Below are positions 1 through 6,235 of a stretch of 44,826 bases of DNA, piece by piece. The stretch is from a virus (Duplodnaviria > Heunggongvirae > Uroviricota > Caudoviricetes), in IMG/VR virus record IMGVR_UViG_2585427971_000012, one strand, 5' to 3'. A program made the translations under genes and the position numbers. The notes beneath the pieces are model-generated. The model saw only the letters and a list, made by a program, of their open reading frames with translations, was not told where the DNA came from and did no database searches. Position 1 is the first letter of the stretch, and every line of letters starts with the position of its first letter.

Positions 1-91
1 CACAACATCCGAGGACAGCAACACCCGATACTTTTTCCTGGCTTCCAGCAACGGGGTTTCTTCCTCCGTTGCATATACAGCTCACCTTTTT

Positions 92-385
92 TCACCCACG
101 ATTAACCAACAGCCAGACCAGCAGACACGCCACCACCGGCACAGCAAAATCCATCAGGCTTGCCACATCCCAAGCTCGCGGATCAAAACCGCCCCACCAC
201 GGCATATTCATTCGCTTGCCATGCCCGAACATTTCAATCCAGCGATATTCTGCCTGGGTATGTTCACGCGCAATGAAGAACGTACAACCGGCTATCGCTC
301 CGTAAGCCCAGTTTCCGGTAAAAAGACCAACCAGTATCTGCGCAGCCACAGCACAAAGTGCATGAAGTAAGGGGCTTATATCCAT
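92..385 (-). CDS. Hypothetical small membrane protein (97 aa), last gene of the tail-fibre cluster
   Basis: ORF track; hydrophobic stretches suggesting 2-3 TM helices; same strand and 12 nt downstream of the 398..676 ORF. No family recognised. Confidence 0.3.
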   Translation of the reverse strand: MDISPLLHALCAVAAQILVGLFTGNWAYGAIAGCTFFIAREHTQAEYRWIEMFGHGKRMNMPWWGGFDPRAWDVASLMDFAVPVVACLLVWLLVNRG

Positions 386-397
386 TATTTCCTCCTT

Positions 398-676
398 TCA
401 GCTCCATTCCCGAAGCGGTGTTTCCAGCTCCACGACATAATCAGAGAATACAGAAACATCAAACAAGTCATCAAGAATGCGAATGTTGACAAAATAACCG
501 TCATTCCGGACACAGACAGGTTCTCCCTCTTCTGTTACCCCTGTTTCTGTGTAGGTGAAACCAATTTCATCGACTAACAGTTTATTCTGGAGGTCTTCAT
601 CCTCCTCCCAGTCAAGAGATGACAGGAAGGATTTAAACTCTCTGTTACCAGGAAATTTCAAAGTTAAATCTTTCAT
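398..676 (-). CDS. Hypothetical acidic protein (92 aa), possibly a tail-fibre assembly/chaperone factor
   Basis: Start codon overlaps the stf stop (673..676), suggesting translational coupling. Not similar to lambda Tfa as recalled. Function is inferred from position only. Confidence 0.3.
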   Translation of the reverse strand: MKDLTLKFPGNREFKSFLSSLDWEEDEDLQNKLLVDEIGFTYTETGVTEEGEPVCVRNDGYFVNIRILDDLFDVSVFSDYVVELETPLREWS

Positions 677-2694
677 ACTGCCTCCTTGATTTGCCTGTCA
701 TTTAATTCTTTAAACCAGACTCTGAAATTTCTGATGTGTCCAAACAAATGACGCGTTCCTGCTGCGGTCTGCCCACCAAACCGGTACGATGTTGCTGTAA
801 CTCCAAATATTTTACCATTAAGGTTTGTTGTATAATTACCATTGCATATTGCATTTACTGATAAATCAGATTTAGCTCTCACACCCACAATGAACCTTTC
901 TCCATCTGAGGCAATTTGTGGCTGAACCATTCCTACGTTGGCGCTTATCTTTCCTGTTGCAACAAACCCCAGCGATAAATAATTATCATCAATACTGTGC
1001 CCTCCAACATCAAATATCCTTGGCGCAACATTGGGCGGTGTACTCCAGTTCCTGCTTACTTCGCACAATACCGTAAAAGGCCGTGTTGACAGGTTATTCT
1101 GCGATGGGATAGTAACTACATCACTTGCGCGTGTTGTTGGCATTGTAGTTACAATAAATGACGATGCCGTATTGCCCAGTTCAATTTGCGGCGTCGTCAT
1201 GGTTAATGTTGAGTCATCATAGAATGTCTCATTACTTATTTTATTTGTCATATAAAAAGCACAGTTAACGGTATCAATGTCCGTATTAGCTGTATAAGTG
1301 GCCTCATAGTAGGTCCACTCGCCCTGTTGTTCAGCTTTGGCTGTTATAAGGGATGTATTACCGCTTACTGTTGCGATCCGGGTATCCAGATCAAGATAAG
1401 AGTCAGCAGAGAAGGTATCTGTTCCACCAATAATAACTGAAACTCTTAACCTGCATCGTGCTTTAGCGCCTTTAACCCGGCACGAAAAAGTGAAACATTC
1501 ACCACTTGCCAGCGGGAATCTGTCTGCTGCAACCACACCATGCACAGTATAGCCACCTGTTGTTCCCACTATACTTTCCGTGGGTGTCACCGTGGCATAA
1601 TTGAACCCCTGTTTATCAGTGCCAAATGTTTTATTCAGTGCGGAATGAACAGTCCATGAGTCTGGTTTATTTGAGTTCCTCAGATAATTTGTCCTCTGTC
1701 CTTCAATCAATAAGCCATCGCGCTCAAATCGCGGTTCGTCAACTTCAGCAAGCTTGAGTTGGCCGGACTTATTAATATACGTTGCTGTTGAAGCACGTTT
1801 AAACTTAACAATCTTGTCGCCTGGCATTGTTATTTCATCGTCACCAATAACTATCTTTTTATAAGATGGCGAAAAACCCGTAATCATATCCAGTGAATCG
1901 TTAAACGGTATCCACACATCAGGCAGCGGCGGCACTATATTCGCACAGGGCTCTGCAGTCACTTCCGCTGCGGCTTCTGCGCGGTCTGCCGCCTTTTCAG
2001 CTCGTGTCGCTGCCGACAGAGCCTCATCCTTTTTCTGCCCGGCCTTTGTTGCGTCTGCTGCGGCCTCCCGCGCTTTTGTGGTGGCGACTCCGGCATTTTC
2101 AGCGGCTGACTCTGCATTACGGCGGGAAGCCTCTTCACTGTCTGCGGAGGCTTCTTCTGACGCACGGGCATTTGTCTCTGAACGTTCTGCCGCTGTTGCT
2201 GCGTTTTGTGCGGCTGTTTTTGAAGAAGCTGCCGCTTTCGCGCTGTTACCTGCATTCGTCTCTGATGTTTTCGCCGCGTTCCTGGACGATGCCGCTGCTG
2301 TTTCTGATTTCTTTGCTGCCGCTGCGCTCTGAGAGGCGGCTTCAGCGTTGCGTGCCGCCTCTTCCACCATCTTTTCAAAACGATACAGTGCCTCCGGACA
2401 AACATCATCTTCTGTTGCAGCGCCCAGAAAATCATTCAATGTCCCCGGCTTAGAATCCTCATACACGGTGATGGTCCCGGCATGTGAAGGCGGAAAACCT
2501 TCAACCAGCAGGGCGACGCTGTACTGGCCATACTCAACATCCATGCTGTAACGTCCGGCTTCATCCGGATTTTCTGAGGCCACCGTGTTCACCACAACTG
2601 TGGTGCTGTTACGTTTTGCTTTGAGCTGAATGGTGCAGTTCTGTATCGGTTTTCCTGCACCGTCTTTCAGCACACCTGAAATCTGTACTGCCAT
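673..2694 (-). CDS. stf: Side tail fibre protein, Stf-like: lambda-type N-terminus, Ala/Ser-rich repeat region, divergent C-terminal domain
   Basis: N-terminus from the ATG at 2694 (MAVQISGVLKDGAGKPIQNCTIQLKA...) matches lambda Stf as recalled. Track start 2700 is an upstream GTG; GGAG sits 5 nt before the 2694 ATG. C-terminal ~350 aa is unlike lambda. Confidence 0.8.
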   Translation of the reverse strand: MAVQISGVLKDGAGKPIQNCTIQLKAKRNSTTVVVNTVASENPDEAGRYSMDVEYGQYSVALLVEGFPPSHAGTITVYEDSKPGTLNDFLGAATEDDVCPEALYRFEKMVEEAARNAEAASQSAAAAKKSETAAASSRNAAKTSETNAGNSAKAAASSKTAAQNAATAAERSETNARASEEASADSEEASRRNAESAAENAGVATTKAREAAADATKAGQKKDEALSAATRAEKAADRAEAAAEVTAEPCANIVPPLPDVWIPFNDSLDMITGFSPSYKKIVIGDDEITMPGDKIVKFKRASTATYINKSGQLKLAEVDEPRFERDGLLIEGQRTNYLRNSNKPDSWTVHSALNKTFGTDKQGFNYATVTPTESIVGTTGGYTVHGVVAADRFPLASGECFTFSCRVKGAKARCRLRVSVIIGGTDTFSADSYLDLDTRIATVSGNTSLITAKAEQQGEWTYYEATYTANTDIDTVNCAFYMTNKISNETFYDDSTLTMTTPQIELGNTASSFIVTTMPTTRASDVVTIPSQNNLSTRPFTVLCEVSRNWSTPPNVAPRIFDVGGHSIDDNYLSLGFVATGKISANVGMVQPQIASDGERFIVGVRAKSDLSVNAICNGNYTTNLNGKIFGVTATSYRFGGQTAAGTRHLFGHIRNFRVWFKELNDRQIKEAV

Positions 2695-2705
2695 ATTCAC
2701 TCCAC

Positions 2706-2733
2706 AAATAAAAAAGGCACCATTTCTGGTGCC
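2706..2733 (-). terminator. Candidate intrinsic terminator between J and stf
   Basis: Inverted repeat GGCACC(2716..2721)/GGTGCC(2728..2733) with 6-nt loop, followed on the minus strand by a U-run (plus-strand aaataaaaaa 2706..2715). Confidence 0.4.
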
Positions 2734-2752
2734 CGAATTTGGGTTTTAAAAT

Positions 2753-5700
2753 TCAACTGATACTGATGCCGGCTGTTGATTTCTTCATCACGACAACAAG
2801 AAGGTCGCTGATACTGGTCGTTGGCGTCCAGTTATTTGCACCATATGAAGAAACATTGAAAGTCAGGGTGACATGGCCGTGTCCGGCAGGCATATCAATG
2901 ACTGATGAAAATACCCTGCTGACATCCGTCGCGGGTTGCTGAAAGATTTCCTGTCCGTTCTTCAGCACCTGCAGCTTACAGGTTGAATACCAGTATGACT
3001 GTTGGTTGTTGCTGTTGAAGTTTTCATGCTTACCACCGCGAAACAGAACGGGGGGGACGACTATCTGACGGTCAAAAGCCTGGTCATCGTACACAGTGAC
3101 CGTTATTGTACCGCTGGCATAACTGCCATTTCTCGGAAAGGCTTTTCCCACCGTTTTGACAATATCACCTTCAATCTGGTTAGCTGACAGTTTTCCCAGA
3201 ATCCGACAGTTCTGGTTAATCGTGACATTATTGAGCGTCCCGGAGTTCGCATTCACGTTACCGCTGATATCCGCATTTCTCGCAGAAAGTCGACCATCAG
3301 GTGTCAGTGAAAACGTTGGGGGATTGCCACCGCTGGTAATGGTGGGAGCCGTCAGATATTTCAGGAACACTTCGTTCATGAATATCTGATCGCCCTGCCC
3401 AACAAACATCGGCTTTGTATTGCCATTCGCAGGATTAATCATCGCAATCCTGTCCGCCGCCAGCAGCACCTGACTCTGCATACCGTCAGGGGTATTCTCA
3501 ATACCGGCACCAATACCCGCGATATAAAGGCGTCCGTCCTGCATCTGCTGCAGCTTCACAGCCCACATGCTGTTCAGGTTATTATTTGTATCAACCTGAA
3601 CCTTCTGTATCTGCTGGATCGCTGCACTCTGGTCTTCCAGTTTCTTATTGACGGTCTGCGTGATTTCATTGCTGACATCCGTAATGGACGTCCTGATTTC
3701 AGCCAGGTCAGGCGCAAGCTGACCGTTATCAATCTGCGTCCACAACTCCTGAGCCAGATGGGTTTTCCCTATCTCTCCTTTGAAAAAATCCAGATAGCCG
3801 GATGCATCATCACTCGGCTGGCCAACAGCCTCCACAAATGCCGATTTGCCAACGGTGTTCACACTGCGAATGTAAAAATAATAATCATGGCCCGGTTTGA
3901 TATTGATACTGGCGGCTATCCAGTACAGCGCCGTACCAAGATAACGCGCGCTGGCTTCAACCTGCCTGATATCCGCAATCCGCTTTTCCGAGAACCAGAA
4001 CTCAAACTGTACCGTCGGATCATAAACGGCAAGATGCGGCGTTGCGGTTATCTGAAAATAGCCCGGCGTCAGCTCAATCCGCGATGGCGCTGCCGGTGCG
4101 GCAATCCGGAACGATACCGACGCCGGATCCCCCTGCTGCCCCCACGCATTTACCGCCCGGACTGTCAGCCTGTAGTTCCCCAGCGCCAGTTGCCTGAAGC
4201 GGTATGTGGTTTCCGTCGTCCTGGCCGTGCTGACCAGCCGCTCACTGCCGTCATCCGCTGCCACGGTCAGGCGAAGCATAAAGCTCACCCCCTTCACCAC
4301 CTTCGGTGTGTCCCATCGCGCCAGCACCTGATATTCCCCGCTGTCTGCGGTGACTTCTGCGGTCAGGTGCTGCACCGCGGGCGGCGTGACACCATTCACC
4401 GTGCCACTCTGTTCGCCGTCAAAGTGCGCCCCGTTATCCACGATGGTCTCTTTTTCCGGCATATGCTGCACGGCGGTGATGGCATACGTGCCGTCGTCGT
4501 TTTCACGGATACTCACGCAGCGGAACAGTCGCTGGCGCAGCGTCGGCAGCTTCAGCCCCCATACGCTGTATTCAGCAACACCGTCAGGAACACGGCTCAC
4601 TTTCACCTTCACGCCGTCGGTGACGGACTGAACCTCCACGCTGACCGGATTGCCACTTCCGTCAACCAGGCTTATCAGCGTGGTACCGGAGGATGGCAGC
4701 GTGATTTCACGGTCGAGCGTCAGCGTCCGGGTCTGGCTGTTCACCGCCAGCACACGACCACCGGTGCTGATACCGGCATAGTCATCATCGCAGATTTCAA
4801 TGACATCCCCCGGTACATGGCGAAGCCCTTCAGCACCCACGCTGAAGTCCACGGTCTGCGTTTCCAGCAGCTCCGTTTTAATCAGCCACAGCCCGGCGCG
4901 GTGTGCCTGCCCCCGGCTGGTACAGCCAAAGGCATCCATCTTCGTGACGTTACGGCCGTAACGGGCAATGGCCTGCGTATCCTCCACGAGCTCTGTCGCC
5001 GTCTCCCAGCCGTTATCCGGGTCAATCCAGTTCACCTCAACGGCATTATGGCGGTCCTTCAGGGCGCTGAAGCTGTAGCGGAACGGCGCGCCATCATCCG
5101 GCATCACCACATTACTGCGGTTATAGGTCCACACCTTATCTGATGGTCGGTCCTGCACGAACGTCAGCGTCTGCCCGTTCCATACCGGCATACAGCGCAT
5201 CGCCGAGCAGAAATCACTGAGCACATCCCACGCCTTGCGCTGTGTGGTCAGGTACGCATTACAGGTAATGCGCGGCTCCGTGCCGCCAAAGCCGTCCGGC
5301 ACCGACTGGTCGCAGTACTGGCCGATGACATACAGCGCCCATTTATCCACATCCGCCGCACCAAGACGTTTCCCCATGCCGTAGCGCGGATGGGTCAGCA
5401 TATCCCACAGACACCAGGCCATGTTGTTGCTGTATGCCGGTTTTAACGTTCCGTCCCAGATACCGCTGTATTGCCGCGTCTGCGGGTTATAGTTCGACGG
5501 CACCTGCAGAATGCGCCCGCGAAGATGATAATTACGGCTCACCTGCTGGCTGCCGAACTGCTCCGAGTCCACCTGCACGCCAACCAGTGCCGTGTTCGGG
5601 TAGCACTGTTTCACATCGATGATTTCGGTGTATGACGACCAGAGCGTTTTGTTCAGCAGCTGGTCTGTGGTGCTGTCCGGCGTCATCCTGCGCATCCGGA

Positions 5701-6235
5701 TATTAAACGGGCGCGGCGGCAGGTTATCCACCACCACCGAGGCCAGATACTGCGAGGTGGTTTTGCCCTTAATGGTGATGTCTTTTTCCGTCACCCAGCC
5801 ACCGTTACGCTGTATCTGAACCAGCAGGCGAACTTCCGACGGATTCCTGTCTCCCTTTGAGGTGGTTTCCACCAGTGCCTGTACACCGAAGGTAAAGCGC
5901 AGACGGTCGATGTTTGCCGACGTGATGGTCCGGGTGATCGGCGTGTCATATTTCACTTCCGTACCCAGCACCGTCTCGGAGCCGGAGGATTCAAATCCCT
6001 CCGGCGGTGACTGCTCCTGCTCACCGGCCCGGAACACCACCGTGACGCCGGATATATTGGTATTCCCCTCACTGTCCAGCACCGGCGTACTGTTCAGCAG
6101 CACGCTTTTTAATCCATCCACCGGACCTTCAACCGGCCCTTCGCTGATGGCATCGATCACACTCAGCAGCTGCGTGGACTTCAGGTTGTCCTTCGCTTCG
6201 CGCGGGGTATGCCCCTTACTGCTGCCTTTACCCAT
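2753..6235 (-). CDS. J: Tail tip / host specificity protein J (1160 aa)
   Basis: N-terminus [34 protein letters not shown]... and most of the length match lambda gpJ as recalled; C-terminal ~150 aa diverge. Confidence 0.95.

What the first reader, a model, noticed from the sequence alone, without database searches (positions are those of the whole stretch)
92..2694. Tail-fibre specificity module: lambda-type Stf N-terminus with a different C-terminal domain and two small coupled genes instead of Tfa
The Stf N-terminal anchor and Ala/Ser-rich shaft are lambda-like, but the distal ~350 aa differ, as do the last ~150 aa of J. Downstream are a 92-aa acidic protein translationally coupled to stf and a 97-aa membrane protein, neither resembling lambda Tfa. 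This implies a different receptor and chaperone system; the membrane protein could equally be a superinfection-exclusion factor. A further basic ORF starts at 74 and runs off the window.
Basis: partly seen in the sequence, partly recalled or inferred. Interest (0 to 1): 0.4.

Follow-up and report, generated by a model that had tools for sequence, protein, structure and literature searches.

The report
Mosaic lambdoid side-tail-fibre module
This is the side-tail-fibre end of a common phage-21-like E. coli prophage: a lambda-type fibre carrying a sugar-binding tip, with a small partner gene that always accompanies that tip and an unrelated small membrane gene of unknown function; the DNA is already in public phage genomes.

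Summary
On the minus strand lie J (2753-6235), stf (673-2694), a 92-aa acidic gene (398-676, ATGA overlap with stf) and a 97-aa membrane gene (92-385).

The Stf N-terminus is 73% identical to lambda's. The distal 420 aa have no lambda similarity. They consist of a domain homologous to the RcGTA head-spike fibre (Rcc01080, a capsule-polysaccharide binder) plus a LamG/ConA-like lectin domain.

The region is 100% identical to a dozen sequenced lambdoid phages and is present in about 510 complete E. coli genomes, so the DNA is not new.

The two small genes behave differently:
- **p92** always follows this distal-domain family, with overlapping stop and start codons. This holds in lambdoid, T1-like, T5-like and Dhillonvirus coliphages and in Comamonas and Pantoea prophages. 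It shares the low GC of the distal domain. It is most likely a dedicated fibre accessory (chaperone or distal adaptor), but it is not a Tfa homologue.
- **p97** belongs to a highly conserved three-helix membrane family. It sits just after unrelated tail-fibre and tailspike genes in sipho-, myo- and podoviruses, and also in non-phage chromosomal contexts. It is independent cargo, probably a conversion or exclusion-type gene. Its biochemical function is unknown.

The 'basic ORF at 74' is spurious.

The parts
2753..6235 (-). Tail-tip attachment protein J (1160 aa). Context gene. Diverged from lambda J at residues ~826-870 and in the last ~150 aa.
   Evidence: NCBIfam lambda_TipJ 2386 bits. 83% identity to lambda J, with divergence localised to those two stretches. 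Pfam Ig_GpJ_C at 1038-1160.
2715..2734 (-). Terminator-like GC hairpin followed by a T-run, between J and stf.
   Evidence: Consensus scan. Phage 21 has a terminator annotated at the same place. The number of terminator-like sites in the region is no higher than in shuffled sequence, so on its own this is weak.
2302..2694 (-). Stf N-terminal anchor domain (lambda-type). The ATG at 2694 is the likely start.
   Evidence: Pfam phage_tail_N PF08400, E 2.8e-67. 73% identity to lambda orf-401. PhiR47_2 annotates the equivalent start.
1936..2301 (-). Stf Ala/Ser-rich shaft, variable in length between relatives.
   Evidence: Aligns with the lambda orf-401 shaft at 53%. Relatives whose distal part is identical have total lengths of 545-675 aa, and stop-to-stop reading frames in related loci are 596-775 codons. 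TRF finds no exact tandem repeat.
1126..1710 (-). Stf distal domain 1: beta-sandwich of the RcGTA head-spike-fibre type (CBM-like).
   Evidence: NCBIfam GTA_spike_fiber NF048003, 65.7 bits against a cut-off of 36. Family profile against the PDB: 6TB9 Rcc01080, E 3.1e-34. CBM_4_9 hits in 4 of 7 relatives, all below the Pfam threshold.
685..1125 (-). Stf distal domain 2: LamG / concanavalin-A-like lectin domain.
   Evidence: Pfam Laminin_G_3 in 5 of 7 family members, best E 9.6e-10. For this protein E is 6.5e-4, below the curated cut-off.
398..676 (-). p92: a 92-aa acidic alpha/beta protein, translationally coupled to stf. Candidate dedicated accessory of the distal fibre module.
   Evidence: ATGA overlap with stf. 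phrog_1361, function unknown. AF2 pLDDT 91. Always follows the distal-domain family. Shares its low GC.
92..385 (-). p97: a 97-aa membrane protein with three predicted helices and the invariant motif AREHTQAEYRWI...G.GKR.NMPWWGGFD. Independent cargo gene.
   Evidence: phrog_1443, function unknown. 577 clusters of homologues. Invariant columns. AF2 pLDDT 93 with helices 4-23, 26-52 and 74-96. Contexts.
1..91 (.). Spacer between the p97 stop and the convergent sitD stop, which lies just off the window. It contains the spurious 'basic ORF' starting at 74.
   Evidence: In relatives sitD ends at window position 0. The minus-strand ORF is only 25-32 codons long.

Best explanation
This is the host-recognition end of the late operon of a phage-21-like, sitABCD-carrying lambdoid prophage.

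**Stf.** Stf is a mosaic side tail fibre. A lambda-type N-terminal anchor and an Ala/Ser-rich shaft attach it to the tail tip. Each chain ends in two beta-sandwich lectin-type domains: one of the RcGTA head-spike-fibre type and one LamG/ConA-like. By inference these bind a surface polysaccharide (O-antigen, capsule or LPS) reversibly, speeding adsorption before J engages its outer-membrane receptor.

**p92.** It is made in step with Stf through an overlapping stop/start. It is a dedicated partner of this distal-domain family, either a folding or assembly chaperone or a small distal adaptor or cap. The linkage is shown; the activity is inferred.

**p97.** It is not part of the fibre. It is a conserved three-helix inner-membrane protein that rides at the 3' end of receptor-binding-protein cassettes and at classical conversion or moron sites. 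It most likely acts on the cell envelope or on phage entry (superinfection exclusion or lysogenic conversion). That role is inferred from position and distribution only.
For: **Identity of the locus.** 100% identical over 2.8 kb to 11 phage records, 99.8% to a twelfth (Lambda_2E9, 1H12, ev087, PhiR47_2 and others), and ~94% over the distal fibre and small genes to phage 21. Present at >=80% coverage in 512 of 5426 complete E. coli genomes. sitABCD lies convergent just beyond position 1.

**Stf.**
- PF08400 anchor and 73% identity to lambda.
- The distal part matches NF048003 above its cut-off and Rcc01080 in the PDB at E 3e-34, plus Laminin_G_3 and CBM_4_9 in the family.
- Rcc01080 binds the capsule polysaccharide of R. 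capsulatus (PMC7296036).
- Lateral fibres of T5-like phages bind O-antigen, and those of T1-like phages are thought to do the same (PMC8594841).

**p92.**
- The full distal-domain profile (E 1e-108 to 1e-134) is followed directly by a p92 homologue with a 1- or 4-nt overlap of stop and start in virulent T5-like IrisVonRoten, Dhillonvirus KarlBarth and T1-like tuinn.
- The same holds in a metagenomic contig and in Comamonas and Pantoea prophages.
- Every Escherichia locus examined that has this Stf type has a p92-like ORF.
- GC is 41.9% for p92 and 42.9% for the distal Stf, against 52.7% for p97 and 58.5% for J.
- p92 stays ~90% identical while the distal domain drops to 29-53%. It therefore acts on conserved features of the family, not on the receptor site.

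**p97.**
- 95-100% conserved in 80 IMG/VR loci, whatever Stf type lies upstream.
- Found directly after a P2-type fibre with an S74 domain, pectate-lyase tailspikes, a P22-like tailspike next to int and the P2-like tfa next to sheath FI.
- Absent from the virulent phages that carry the Stf-distal/p92 cassette.
- Chromosomal copies sit among housekeeping genes in Aeromonas, Leclercia and sphingomonads.
Against: - No binding, assembly or exclusion activity is shown for any of the three proteins.
- p92 has no sequence or fold match to Tfa or any chaperone.
- In many phages p92 is followed by a second short fibre gene. This fits an adaptor role at least as well as a chaperone role.
- One relative (Chelativorans, L033) has the distal-domain gene directly next to p97 with no p92.
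- p97 has no promoter-like site of its own. It is only 12 nt from p92, and in some other phages it overlaps the RBP gene or follows it without a gap, which is unlike classical morons.
- An intact p97 copy sits between tailspike genes of a virulent Ackermannviridae genome.
- p97 matches no known exclusion, holin or defence family.
Confidence: 0.62

Rival explanations
1. p92 is a structural adaptor rather than a chaperone. It stays on the distal end of Stf and docks a second, short fibre, giving a branched fibre. In this prophage the second fibre gene has been lost and p92 is retained as a cap or a vestige.
For: A second fibre-like gene follows p92 in IrisVonRoten (574 aa), KarlBarth (98 + 196 aa) and tuinn (166 aa). 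The same is true in about half of the E. coli prophage loci (orf346 or orf234, tail-fibre PHROGs with an S74-type C-terminus) and in a metagenomic contig. Three of these second fibres share the N-terminal motif MATxTVIPxDIT.LK, and KarlBarth's has a looser version of it, which suggests a common docking site. Branched LtfA/LtfB fibres are known in T5-like phages (PMC4728585).
Against: The window type and about 40 related loci keep p92 at 90-100% identity with no second fibre gene. Comamonas kerstersii also has p92 with no second fibre. DT57C, the characterised branched case, has no such small gene between ltfA and ltfB (gp108 and gp107).
Confidence: 0.3
2. p97 is functionally tied to receptor-binding proteins. 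For example, it could be a late membrane factor that helps phages with glycan-binding or glycan-degrading RBPs, by altering envelope glycan display late in infection or by protecting progeny from debris. On this view it is not free cargo.
For: It sits immediately downstream of the RBP gene in six or more unrelated tail architectures, often with an overlapping stop/start or a spacer of under 20 nt. No own promoter was detected. An intact copy lies between tailspikes of a virulent Ackermannviridae genome. All the associated RBPs are of glycan-targeting types (pectate-lyase, S74 fibres, lectin domains).
Against: Most of the 70 genomic loci lack the Stf-distal gene upstream. About ten of the twenty upstream genes annotated are housekeeping genes such as ligA, pnp, a pirin gene and a DAHP-synthase gene; sphingomonads, by general knowledge, lack LPS. 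Virulent phages with the same Stf-distal/p92 cassette do without it. Kuttervirus KFSST3 holds only a truncated, unannotated remnant. p97 is 95-100% conserved while the RBPs differ completely.
Confidence: 0.2
3. p97 is a holin-like or lysis-timing membrane protein.
For: It is small, has 2-3 transmembrane helices and is co-expressed with late genes. From general knowledge, the T4 holin gene t lies just downstream of the tail-fibre genes. In a Comamonas prophage p97 heads a run of small overlapping genes after J.
Against: It matches no holin PHROG or Pfam family. The Comamonas neighbours match no lysis family. It has chromosomal housekeeping contexts. The very strong conservation of a 35-residue polar loop is atypical for holins.
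Confidence: 0.05

Closest known systems
Phage lambda (Ur-lambda) side tail fibre Stf with its assembly protein Tfa
   Same: The fibre gene lies downstream of J in the late operon. The N-terminal anchor is homologous (73% identity, PF08400) and so is the Ala/Ser-rich shaft. A small gene is translationally coupled to the 3' end of stf.
   Different: There is no lom gene between J and stf. The distal 420 aa are unrelated to lambda's gp37-like tip. The coupled gene is unrelated to Tfa in sequence and gives no significant fold match to any solved structure; it is 92 aa against 194 aa.
Rhodobacter capsulatus GTA head-spike fibre Rcc01080 (GhsB; PDB 6TB9 and related entries)
   Same: The central distal domain is homologous (profile E 3e-34; NF048003 above its cut-off). 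That protein binds capsule polysaccharide.
   Different: Rcc01080 is a single chain attached to a capsid pentamer by an N-terminal Leu/Gly peptide. Here the domain is fused to a tail-fibre anchor and shaft and is followed by a LamG-like domain.
Lateral tail fibres of T1-like, Dhillonvirus and T5-like coliphages (for example tuinn, KarlBarth/Bas17, IrisVonRoten/Bas32)
   Same: They have the same full-length distal module, followed by a p92 homologue whose start overlaps the fibre gene's stop. Those of T5-like phages bind O-antigen as a non-essential primary receptor, and the T1-like ones are thought to do the same.
   Different: Their N-terminal anchors differ. They are usually followed by a second short fibre gene. 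None carries p97.
Lysogenic-conversion or moron loci next to RBP genes (P22 gtrABC and Sf6 oac after the tailspike; P2 Z/fun between G and FI; phi80/N15/T1 cor; T5 llp)
   Same: p97 occupies exactly these positions: tailspike-to-int in a P22-like phage and tfa-to-FI in a P2-like phage. It is a small membrane protein. The comparison loci themselves are recalled from general knowledge.
   Different: It has no sequence relationship to any of them. No promoter of its own was detected. Its sequence does not vary with the RBP type. It also occurs in non-phage chromosomal sites.

Membership tests
Lambda-type side tail fibre (Stf) | N-terminal 'prophage tail fibre N-terminal' domain (PF08400) that anchors the fibre to the tail tip | tested here: met
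   PF08400, E 2.8e-67, residues 3-133. 73% identity to lambda orf-401.
Lambda-type side tail fibre (Stf) | Gene position downstream of J in the late operon | tested here: met
   stf starts 58 nt after the J stop, on the same strand.
Lambda-type side tail fibre (Stf) | Distal T4 gp37-like receptor-binding tip homologous to lambda orf-314 | tested here: not met
   BLASTP best E 0.22. The distal part belongs to a different family.
Lambda-type side tail fibre (Stf) | Trimeric fibre present on virions | not testable with these tools
   Needs virion proteomics or electron microscopy.
GTA head-spike-fibre domain proteins (NCBIfam NF048003; Rcc01080) | Sequence match to the family model above its curated cut-off | tested here: met
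   65.7 bits against a cut-off of 36, residues 331-525. Profile against PDB 6TB9, E 3.1e-34.
GTA head-spike-fibre domain proteins (NCBIfam NF048003; Rcc01080) | Binds a surface polysaccharide | not testable with these tools
   Known for Rcc01080. Inferred here from homology and from the added lectin-type domain.
Tail-fibre assembly proteins (lambda Tfa / P2 G / Mu U type) | Sequence or fold similarity to Tfa-family proteins | tested here: not met
   p92 has no Pfam or NCBIfam hit and no BLASTP alignment to lambda Tfa. Foldseek against the PDB gives no hit with E<=0.001.
Tail-fibre assembly proteins (lambda Tfa / P2 G / Mu U type) | Gene immediately downstream of, and co-inherited with, the distal part of the fibre gene | tested here: met
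   ATGA overlap. Co-occurrence across phage families. Shared GC content.
Tail-fibre assembly proteins (lambda Tfa / P2 G / Mu U type) | Required for folding or assembly of the fibre tip | not testable with these tools
   Needs genetics or co-expression.
Prophage morons / superinfection-exclusion or conversion genes | Located at known accessory-gene hot spots and dispensable for virion structure | tested here: met
   The positions after the tailspike next to int, between tfa and FI and at the end of the lambdoid late operon are met. Dispensability is shown only indirectly: phages with the same fibre cassette lack p97.
Prophage morons / superinfection-exclusion or conversion genes | Own promoter and terminator (autonomous expression in the lysogen) | tested here: not met
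   No sigma-70-like site upstream of p97 and no terminator-like site downstream. The spacer to p92 is only 12 nt. A consensus scan cannot exclude a weak internal promoter.
Prophage morons / superinfection-exclusion or conversion genes | Homology to a characterised exclusion, immunity or defence family | tested here: not met
   PHROG hits only to families of unknown function. PADLOC gives none. Pfam gives only a sub-threshold PhoR transmembrane match.
Prophage morons / superinfection-exclusion or conversion genes | Confers a phage-resistance or surface-conversion phenotype | not testable with these tools
   Needs expression and plating assays.
Holins | Match to a holin family, or position in a lysis cassette | tested here: not met
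   No holin PHROG or Pfam hit. The neighbours are fibre genes and sitD.

The most novel reading that the evidence does not exclude
p97 would define an uncharacterised, very strongly conserved family of three-helix inner-membrane proteins (phrog_1443; absent from Pfam and NCBIfam). Siphoviruses, myoviruses and podoviruses of alpha-, beta-, gamma- and deltaproteobacteria (Desulfovibrio) have repeatedly captured it directly behind their receptor-binding genes. It would act as a broad, RBP-independent envelope or entry factor, for example a general block to DNA entry or an inhibitor of a conserved envelope-biogenesis step. In parallel, p92 would be the first member of a new class of tail-fibre chaperone or adaptor, specific for GTA-spike-type lectin fibres.
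Probability: 0.3. Interest if true: 0.6.

Novelty: already known. Interest (0 to 1): 0.3.

Why it matters
The module itself is ordinary phage mosaicism and is already in GenBank, so nothing changes for lambda biology. Two practical points follow.

1. The 'Stf-distal plus p92' unit is a portable host-range cassette shared by temperate and virulent coliphages. Anyone grafting this distal domain onto lambda-type delivery particles or therapeutic phages should probably move p92 with it.

2. p97 is a cheap and testable candidate for a widespread phage-borne envelope or exclusion function. It is a 97-codon gene, nearly invariant, present in hundreds of clinical E. coli genomes (including ST131-type sit prophages) and in many other Proteobacteria, with no assigned function.

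A side benefit concerns annotation. RefSeq currently splits this intact fibre gene into two 'pseudogenes' in at least one genome, which will mislead prophage-integrity calls.

Tried and rejected
- **Structure of the Stf distal region.** The third homologue search returned only rows 100% identical in the distal part. No structure of the distal region was therefore predicted, and its fold assignment rests on sequence profiles.
- **p92 fold.** Foldseek of the p92 model against the PDB gave only weak beta-hairpin look-alikes (ribosomal S10, PII, NusG; TM <=0.44, E >=0.05). The viral structure library gave only uncharacterised phage proteins.
- **Family libraries.** Pfam at lax thresholds on 23 p97 relatives gave only a sub-threshold PhoR transmembrane match. 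PADLOC gave nothing.
- **Literature.** A search for the protein accessions, FIG ids or PHROG ids found no paper.
- **First impression that Stf-distal and p92 co-vary.** This was rejected. p92 stays ~90% identical while every distal sub-domain drops to 29-53%.
- **First impression that p97 always follows the Stf-distal family.** This was rejected. Only 9 of the roughly 70 genomic loci have it.
- **'p97 occurs only in temperate phages'.** This was softened after finding an intact copy in an Ackermannviridae contig.
- **p97 topology.** I first assumed a periplasmic loop. K+R counts favour a cytoplasmic loop instead, so topology is left open.
- **Tandem repeats in the shaft.** TRF found none.
Full report
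**What is there**

The left end of the window carries, all on the minus strand:
- J at 2753-6235;
- a GC hairpin with a T-run at 2734-2715;
- stf at 673-2700, counted from the first GTG, with the lambda-equivalent ATG at 2694;
- a 92-aa ORF at 398-676;
- a 97-aa ORF at 92-385.

The stf stop and the p92 start overlap as ATGA behind an AGGAGG. p97 starts 12 nt after the p92 stop behind AAGGAGG. p92 is acidic (pI 4.05) and p97 is hydrophobic.

The exception is the 'basic ORF starting at 74'. In relatives that extend further it is only 25-32 codons long and lies in the 91-nt spacer before the convergent sitD gene. It is not a gene.

**Where it comes from**

The 2.8 kb are 100% identical to 11 sequenced lambdoid phage records and 99.8% identical to a twelfth (Lambda_2E9, 1H12, ev087, PhiR47_2 and others). 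They are about 94% identical, over the distal fibre and both small genes, to classical phage 21. In all of these the sitABCD transporter operon follows in convergent orientation. The region is present at >=80% coverage in 512 of 5426 complete E. coli genomes. In the deposited records the three genes are called 'side tail fiber', 'hypothetical protein' and 'hypothetical' or 'putative membrane protein'. As a sequence, then, this is already known.

**The fibre**

- Residues 3-133 are the PF08400 anchor (E 2.8e-67).
- Residues 3-160 are 73% identical to lambda orf-401, and the Ala/Ser-rich shaft aligns too.
- The distal 420 residues have no similarity to lambda orf-314.
- Residues 331-525 pass the curated NCBIfam model for the GTA head-spike-fibre domain (65.7 against 36 bits).
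- A profile of seven relatives finds the solved RcGTA head-spike fibre Rcc01080 at E 3e-34, and also baseplate and fibre chains of other phages.
- The last ~150 residues are a LamG/ConA-like lectin domain. Laminin_G_3 matches 5 of 7 relatives (best E 9.6e-10). For this protein the match is below threshold.

Rcc01080 binds capsule polysaccharide. My inference is that this Stf binds a surface glycan, not the protein or LPS target of lambda's gp37-like tip.

J is 83% identical to lambda J. It has a replaced segment at about 826-870 and a diverged, but still Ig_GpJ_C-type, C-terminus.

**p92 belongs to the distal fibre cassette**

p92 has no Pfam, NCBIfam or PADLOC match. It falls in phrog_1361, function unknown. 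It has no BLASTP similarity to lambda Tfa. Its AlphaFold model is confident (pLDDT 91): one strand, two helices and a long beta-hairpin. The model matches nothing informative in the PDB or in the viral structure library.

Its distribution is more informative:
- A tblastn search finds it in 144 phage records.
- In virulent T5-like IrisVonRoten, Dhillonvirus KarlBarth and T1-like tuinn, the lateral-fibre protein carries the complete distal module (profile E 1e-108 to 1e-134). It is followed by a p92 homologue whose start overlaps its stop by 1-4 nt.
- The same pair occurs in a metagenomic contig reached through a distant p92 relative.
- It also occurs in Comamonas and Pantoea prophages, where the p92-like ORF was found by eye and by PHROG 18574.
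- Stf-distal and p92 share a low GC content (42.9% and 41.9%). The values are 52.7% for p97, 52-59% for the Stf anchor and shaft, and 58.5% for most of J.
- p92 does not track the receptor-binding surface. In one large group of prophages every distal sub-domain is only 29-53% identical to the window's, while p92 is 90-93% identical.

A small protein that always accompanies one RBP family, also in compact virulent genomes, and that tolerates divergence of that RBP, is best explained as an assembly chaperone or a distal structural adaptor. I cannot separate these two roles. Many relatives have a second short fibre gene right after p92, which favours an adaptor. The window type and Comamonas kerstersii have none, which favours a chaperone or cap.

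**p97 is something else**

The family is large: 577 clusters at 90% identity. It is remarkably conserved. About 25 columns are invariant across Escherichia, Aeromonas, Comamonas, Leclercia, Citrobacter and Salmonella, centred on AREHTQAEYRWI..FG.GKR.NMPWWGGFD.R.W.

Phage contexts:
- In 80 IMG/VR loci p97 is 95-100% identical, whatever Stf-distal variant or p92 type lies upstream. An extra fibre gene can sit between p92 and p97.
- It lies immediately behind a giant J-like protein in Comamonas.
- It follows a P2-type fibre with an S74 domain in Leclercia.
- It follows pectate-lyase tailspikes in a Citrobacter lambdoid prophage and in an Ackermannviridae genome.
- It follows the tailspike of a P22-like phage just before int.
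- It follows the tail-fibre assembly gene of P2-like phiHAP-1 just before sheath gene FI.
- It follows an S74 tailspike in Desulfovibrio.

From general knowledge, the tailspike-to-int and G-to-FI positions are the classical conversion or moron sites of P22-like and P2-like phages.

Other contexts:
- Only 9 of the roughly 70 genomic loci from distinct species have the Stf-distal family upstream.
- About ten of the twenty upstream genes annotated are housekeeping genes (a pirin gene, ligA, pnp, a fumarate-reductase/aspartate-oxidase-type flavoprotein gene, a DAHP-synthase gene) in Aeromonas, Leclercia and sphingomonads.
- The virulent phages that share the Stf-distal/p92 cassette lack p97.
- Kuttervirus KFSST3 retains only a truncated, unannotated remnant behind a gene next to its annotated tailspike.

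I conclude that p97 works on its own in the cell and travels with the 3' ends of RBP cassettes. It is not a fibre factor. An exclusion or conversion-type role is the most economical reading.

That reading rests on position and distribution only, and several facts argue against it. No promoter of its own was detected. It is tightly coupled to the upstream late gene. One intact copy sits in a virulent phage. A direct RBP-linked late function (about 0.2) and a lysis-related role (about 0.05) remain open.

**Comparison and verdict**

The locus works like the lambda stf-tfa unit and like the lateral-fibre loci of T1-like and T5-like phages. It is a member of the lambda Stf family only by its N-terminal half. 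Its distal half is a member of the GTA head-spike-fibre family. p92 is not a member of the Tfa family, although it may do a similar job. p97 is not a member of any named family.

A different receptor is very likely. 'Two coupled genes instead of Tfa' is really one fibre partner plus one unrelated cargo gene.

Novelty as a genomic object is nil, because identical sequences are published. What I could not find in the literature searched is any statement of the p92-RBP linkage or of the p97 family's distribution.

Interest is modest, at 0.3.

Noticed in passing
window 673-2694 (compare L003 4673-6694): In RefSeq genome NZ_CP023844, which is 100% identical to the window here, PGAP annotates this intact 673-codon stf as two partial pseudogenes: 'phage head spike fiber domain-containing protein, missing N-terminus' and 'prophage tail fiber N-terminal domain-containing protein, missing C-terminus'. 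The low-complexity shaft between them is left unannotated. This looks like an annotation artefact, not a broken gene.
   Followed up: partly
window 1-91 and the sequence just left of position 1: The window starts exactly one base after the stop codon of sitD. In all close relatives the sitABCD iron/manganese transporter operon lies convergent to the late operon, so this is the sit-carrying phage-21-like prophage type.
   Followed up: partly
window ~1936-2301 (Stf shaft): The shaft length is polymorphic. Relatives with a 100% identical distal part range from 545 to 675 aa, and many are flagged 'partial'. Stop-to-stop reading frames in related loci are 596-775 codons. TRF finds no exact tandem repeat.
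   Followed up: partly
relatives of window 673-2700 (hits H1, H26-H28): Several otherwise identical copies have an insertion sequence inside or next to stf: IS4 in phage Lambda_4B5 and ISEc52 in clinical E. coli strains. The fibre is therefore often inactivated in nature.
   Followed up: no
L008 4918-5958; L010 5286-5990; L163 5292-5792: A second short tail-fibre gene lies between p92 and p97 in about half of the related prophages and after p92 in T1-like phages. It has the conserved N-terminus MATxTVIPxDIT.LK and, in the prophage copies, an S74-type intramolecular-chaperone C-terminus. This suggests a branched fibre.
   Followed up: partly
L027 5432-5998, L034 and L023 (Comamonas, Pantoea): In these prophages the p92-like domain is fused to a C-terminal extension of about 95 aa, giving proteins of 171-188 aa. 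The extension weakly matches PHROGs 6034 and 14311 (function unknown).
   Followed up: no
window 2753-3745 (J C-terminal third): J carries a replaced and longer segment at residues ~826-870 and a diverged receptor-binding C-terminus relative to lambda. The GC content of this part (49%) is lower than that of the rest of J (58.5%), which points to a separate recombination event affecting the primary receptor specificity.
   Followed up: partly
one search hits P0306, P0316, P0330, P0332, P0339: The beta-hairpin region of the p92 profile (positions ~34-67) matches multiple repeats in several very large proteins (985-2744 aa) of unknown origin. These may be YD/RHS-like hairpin repeats, and the match may be chance similarity.
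   Followed up: no
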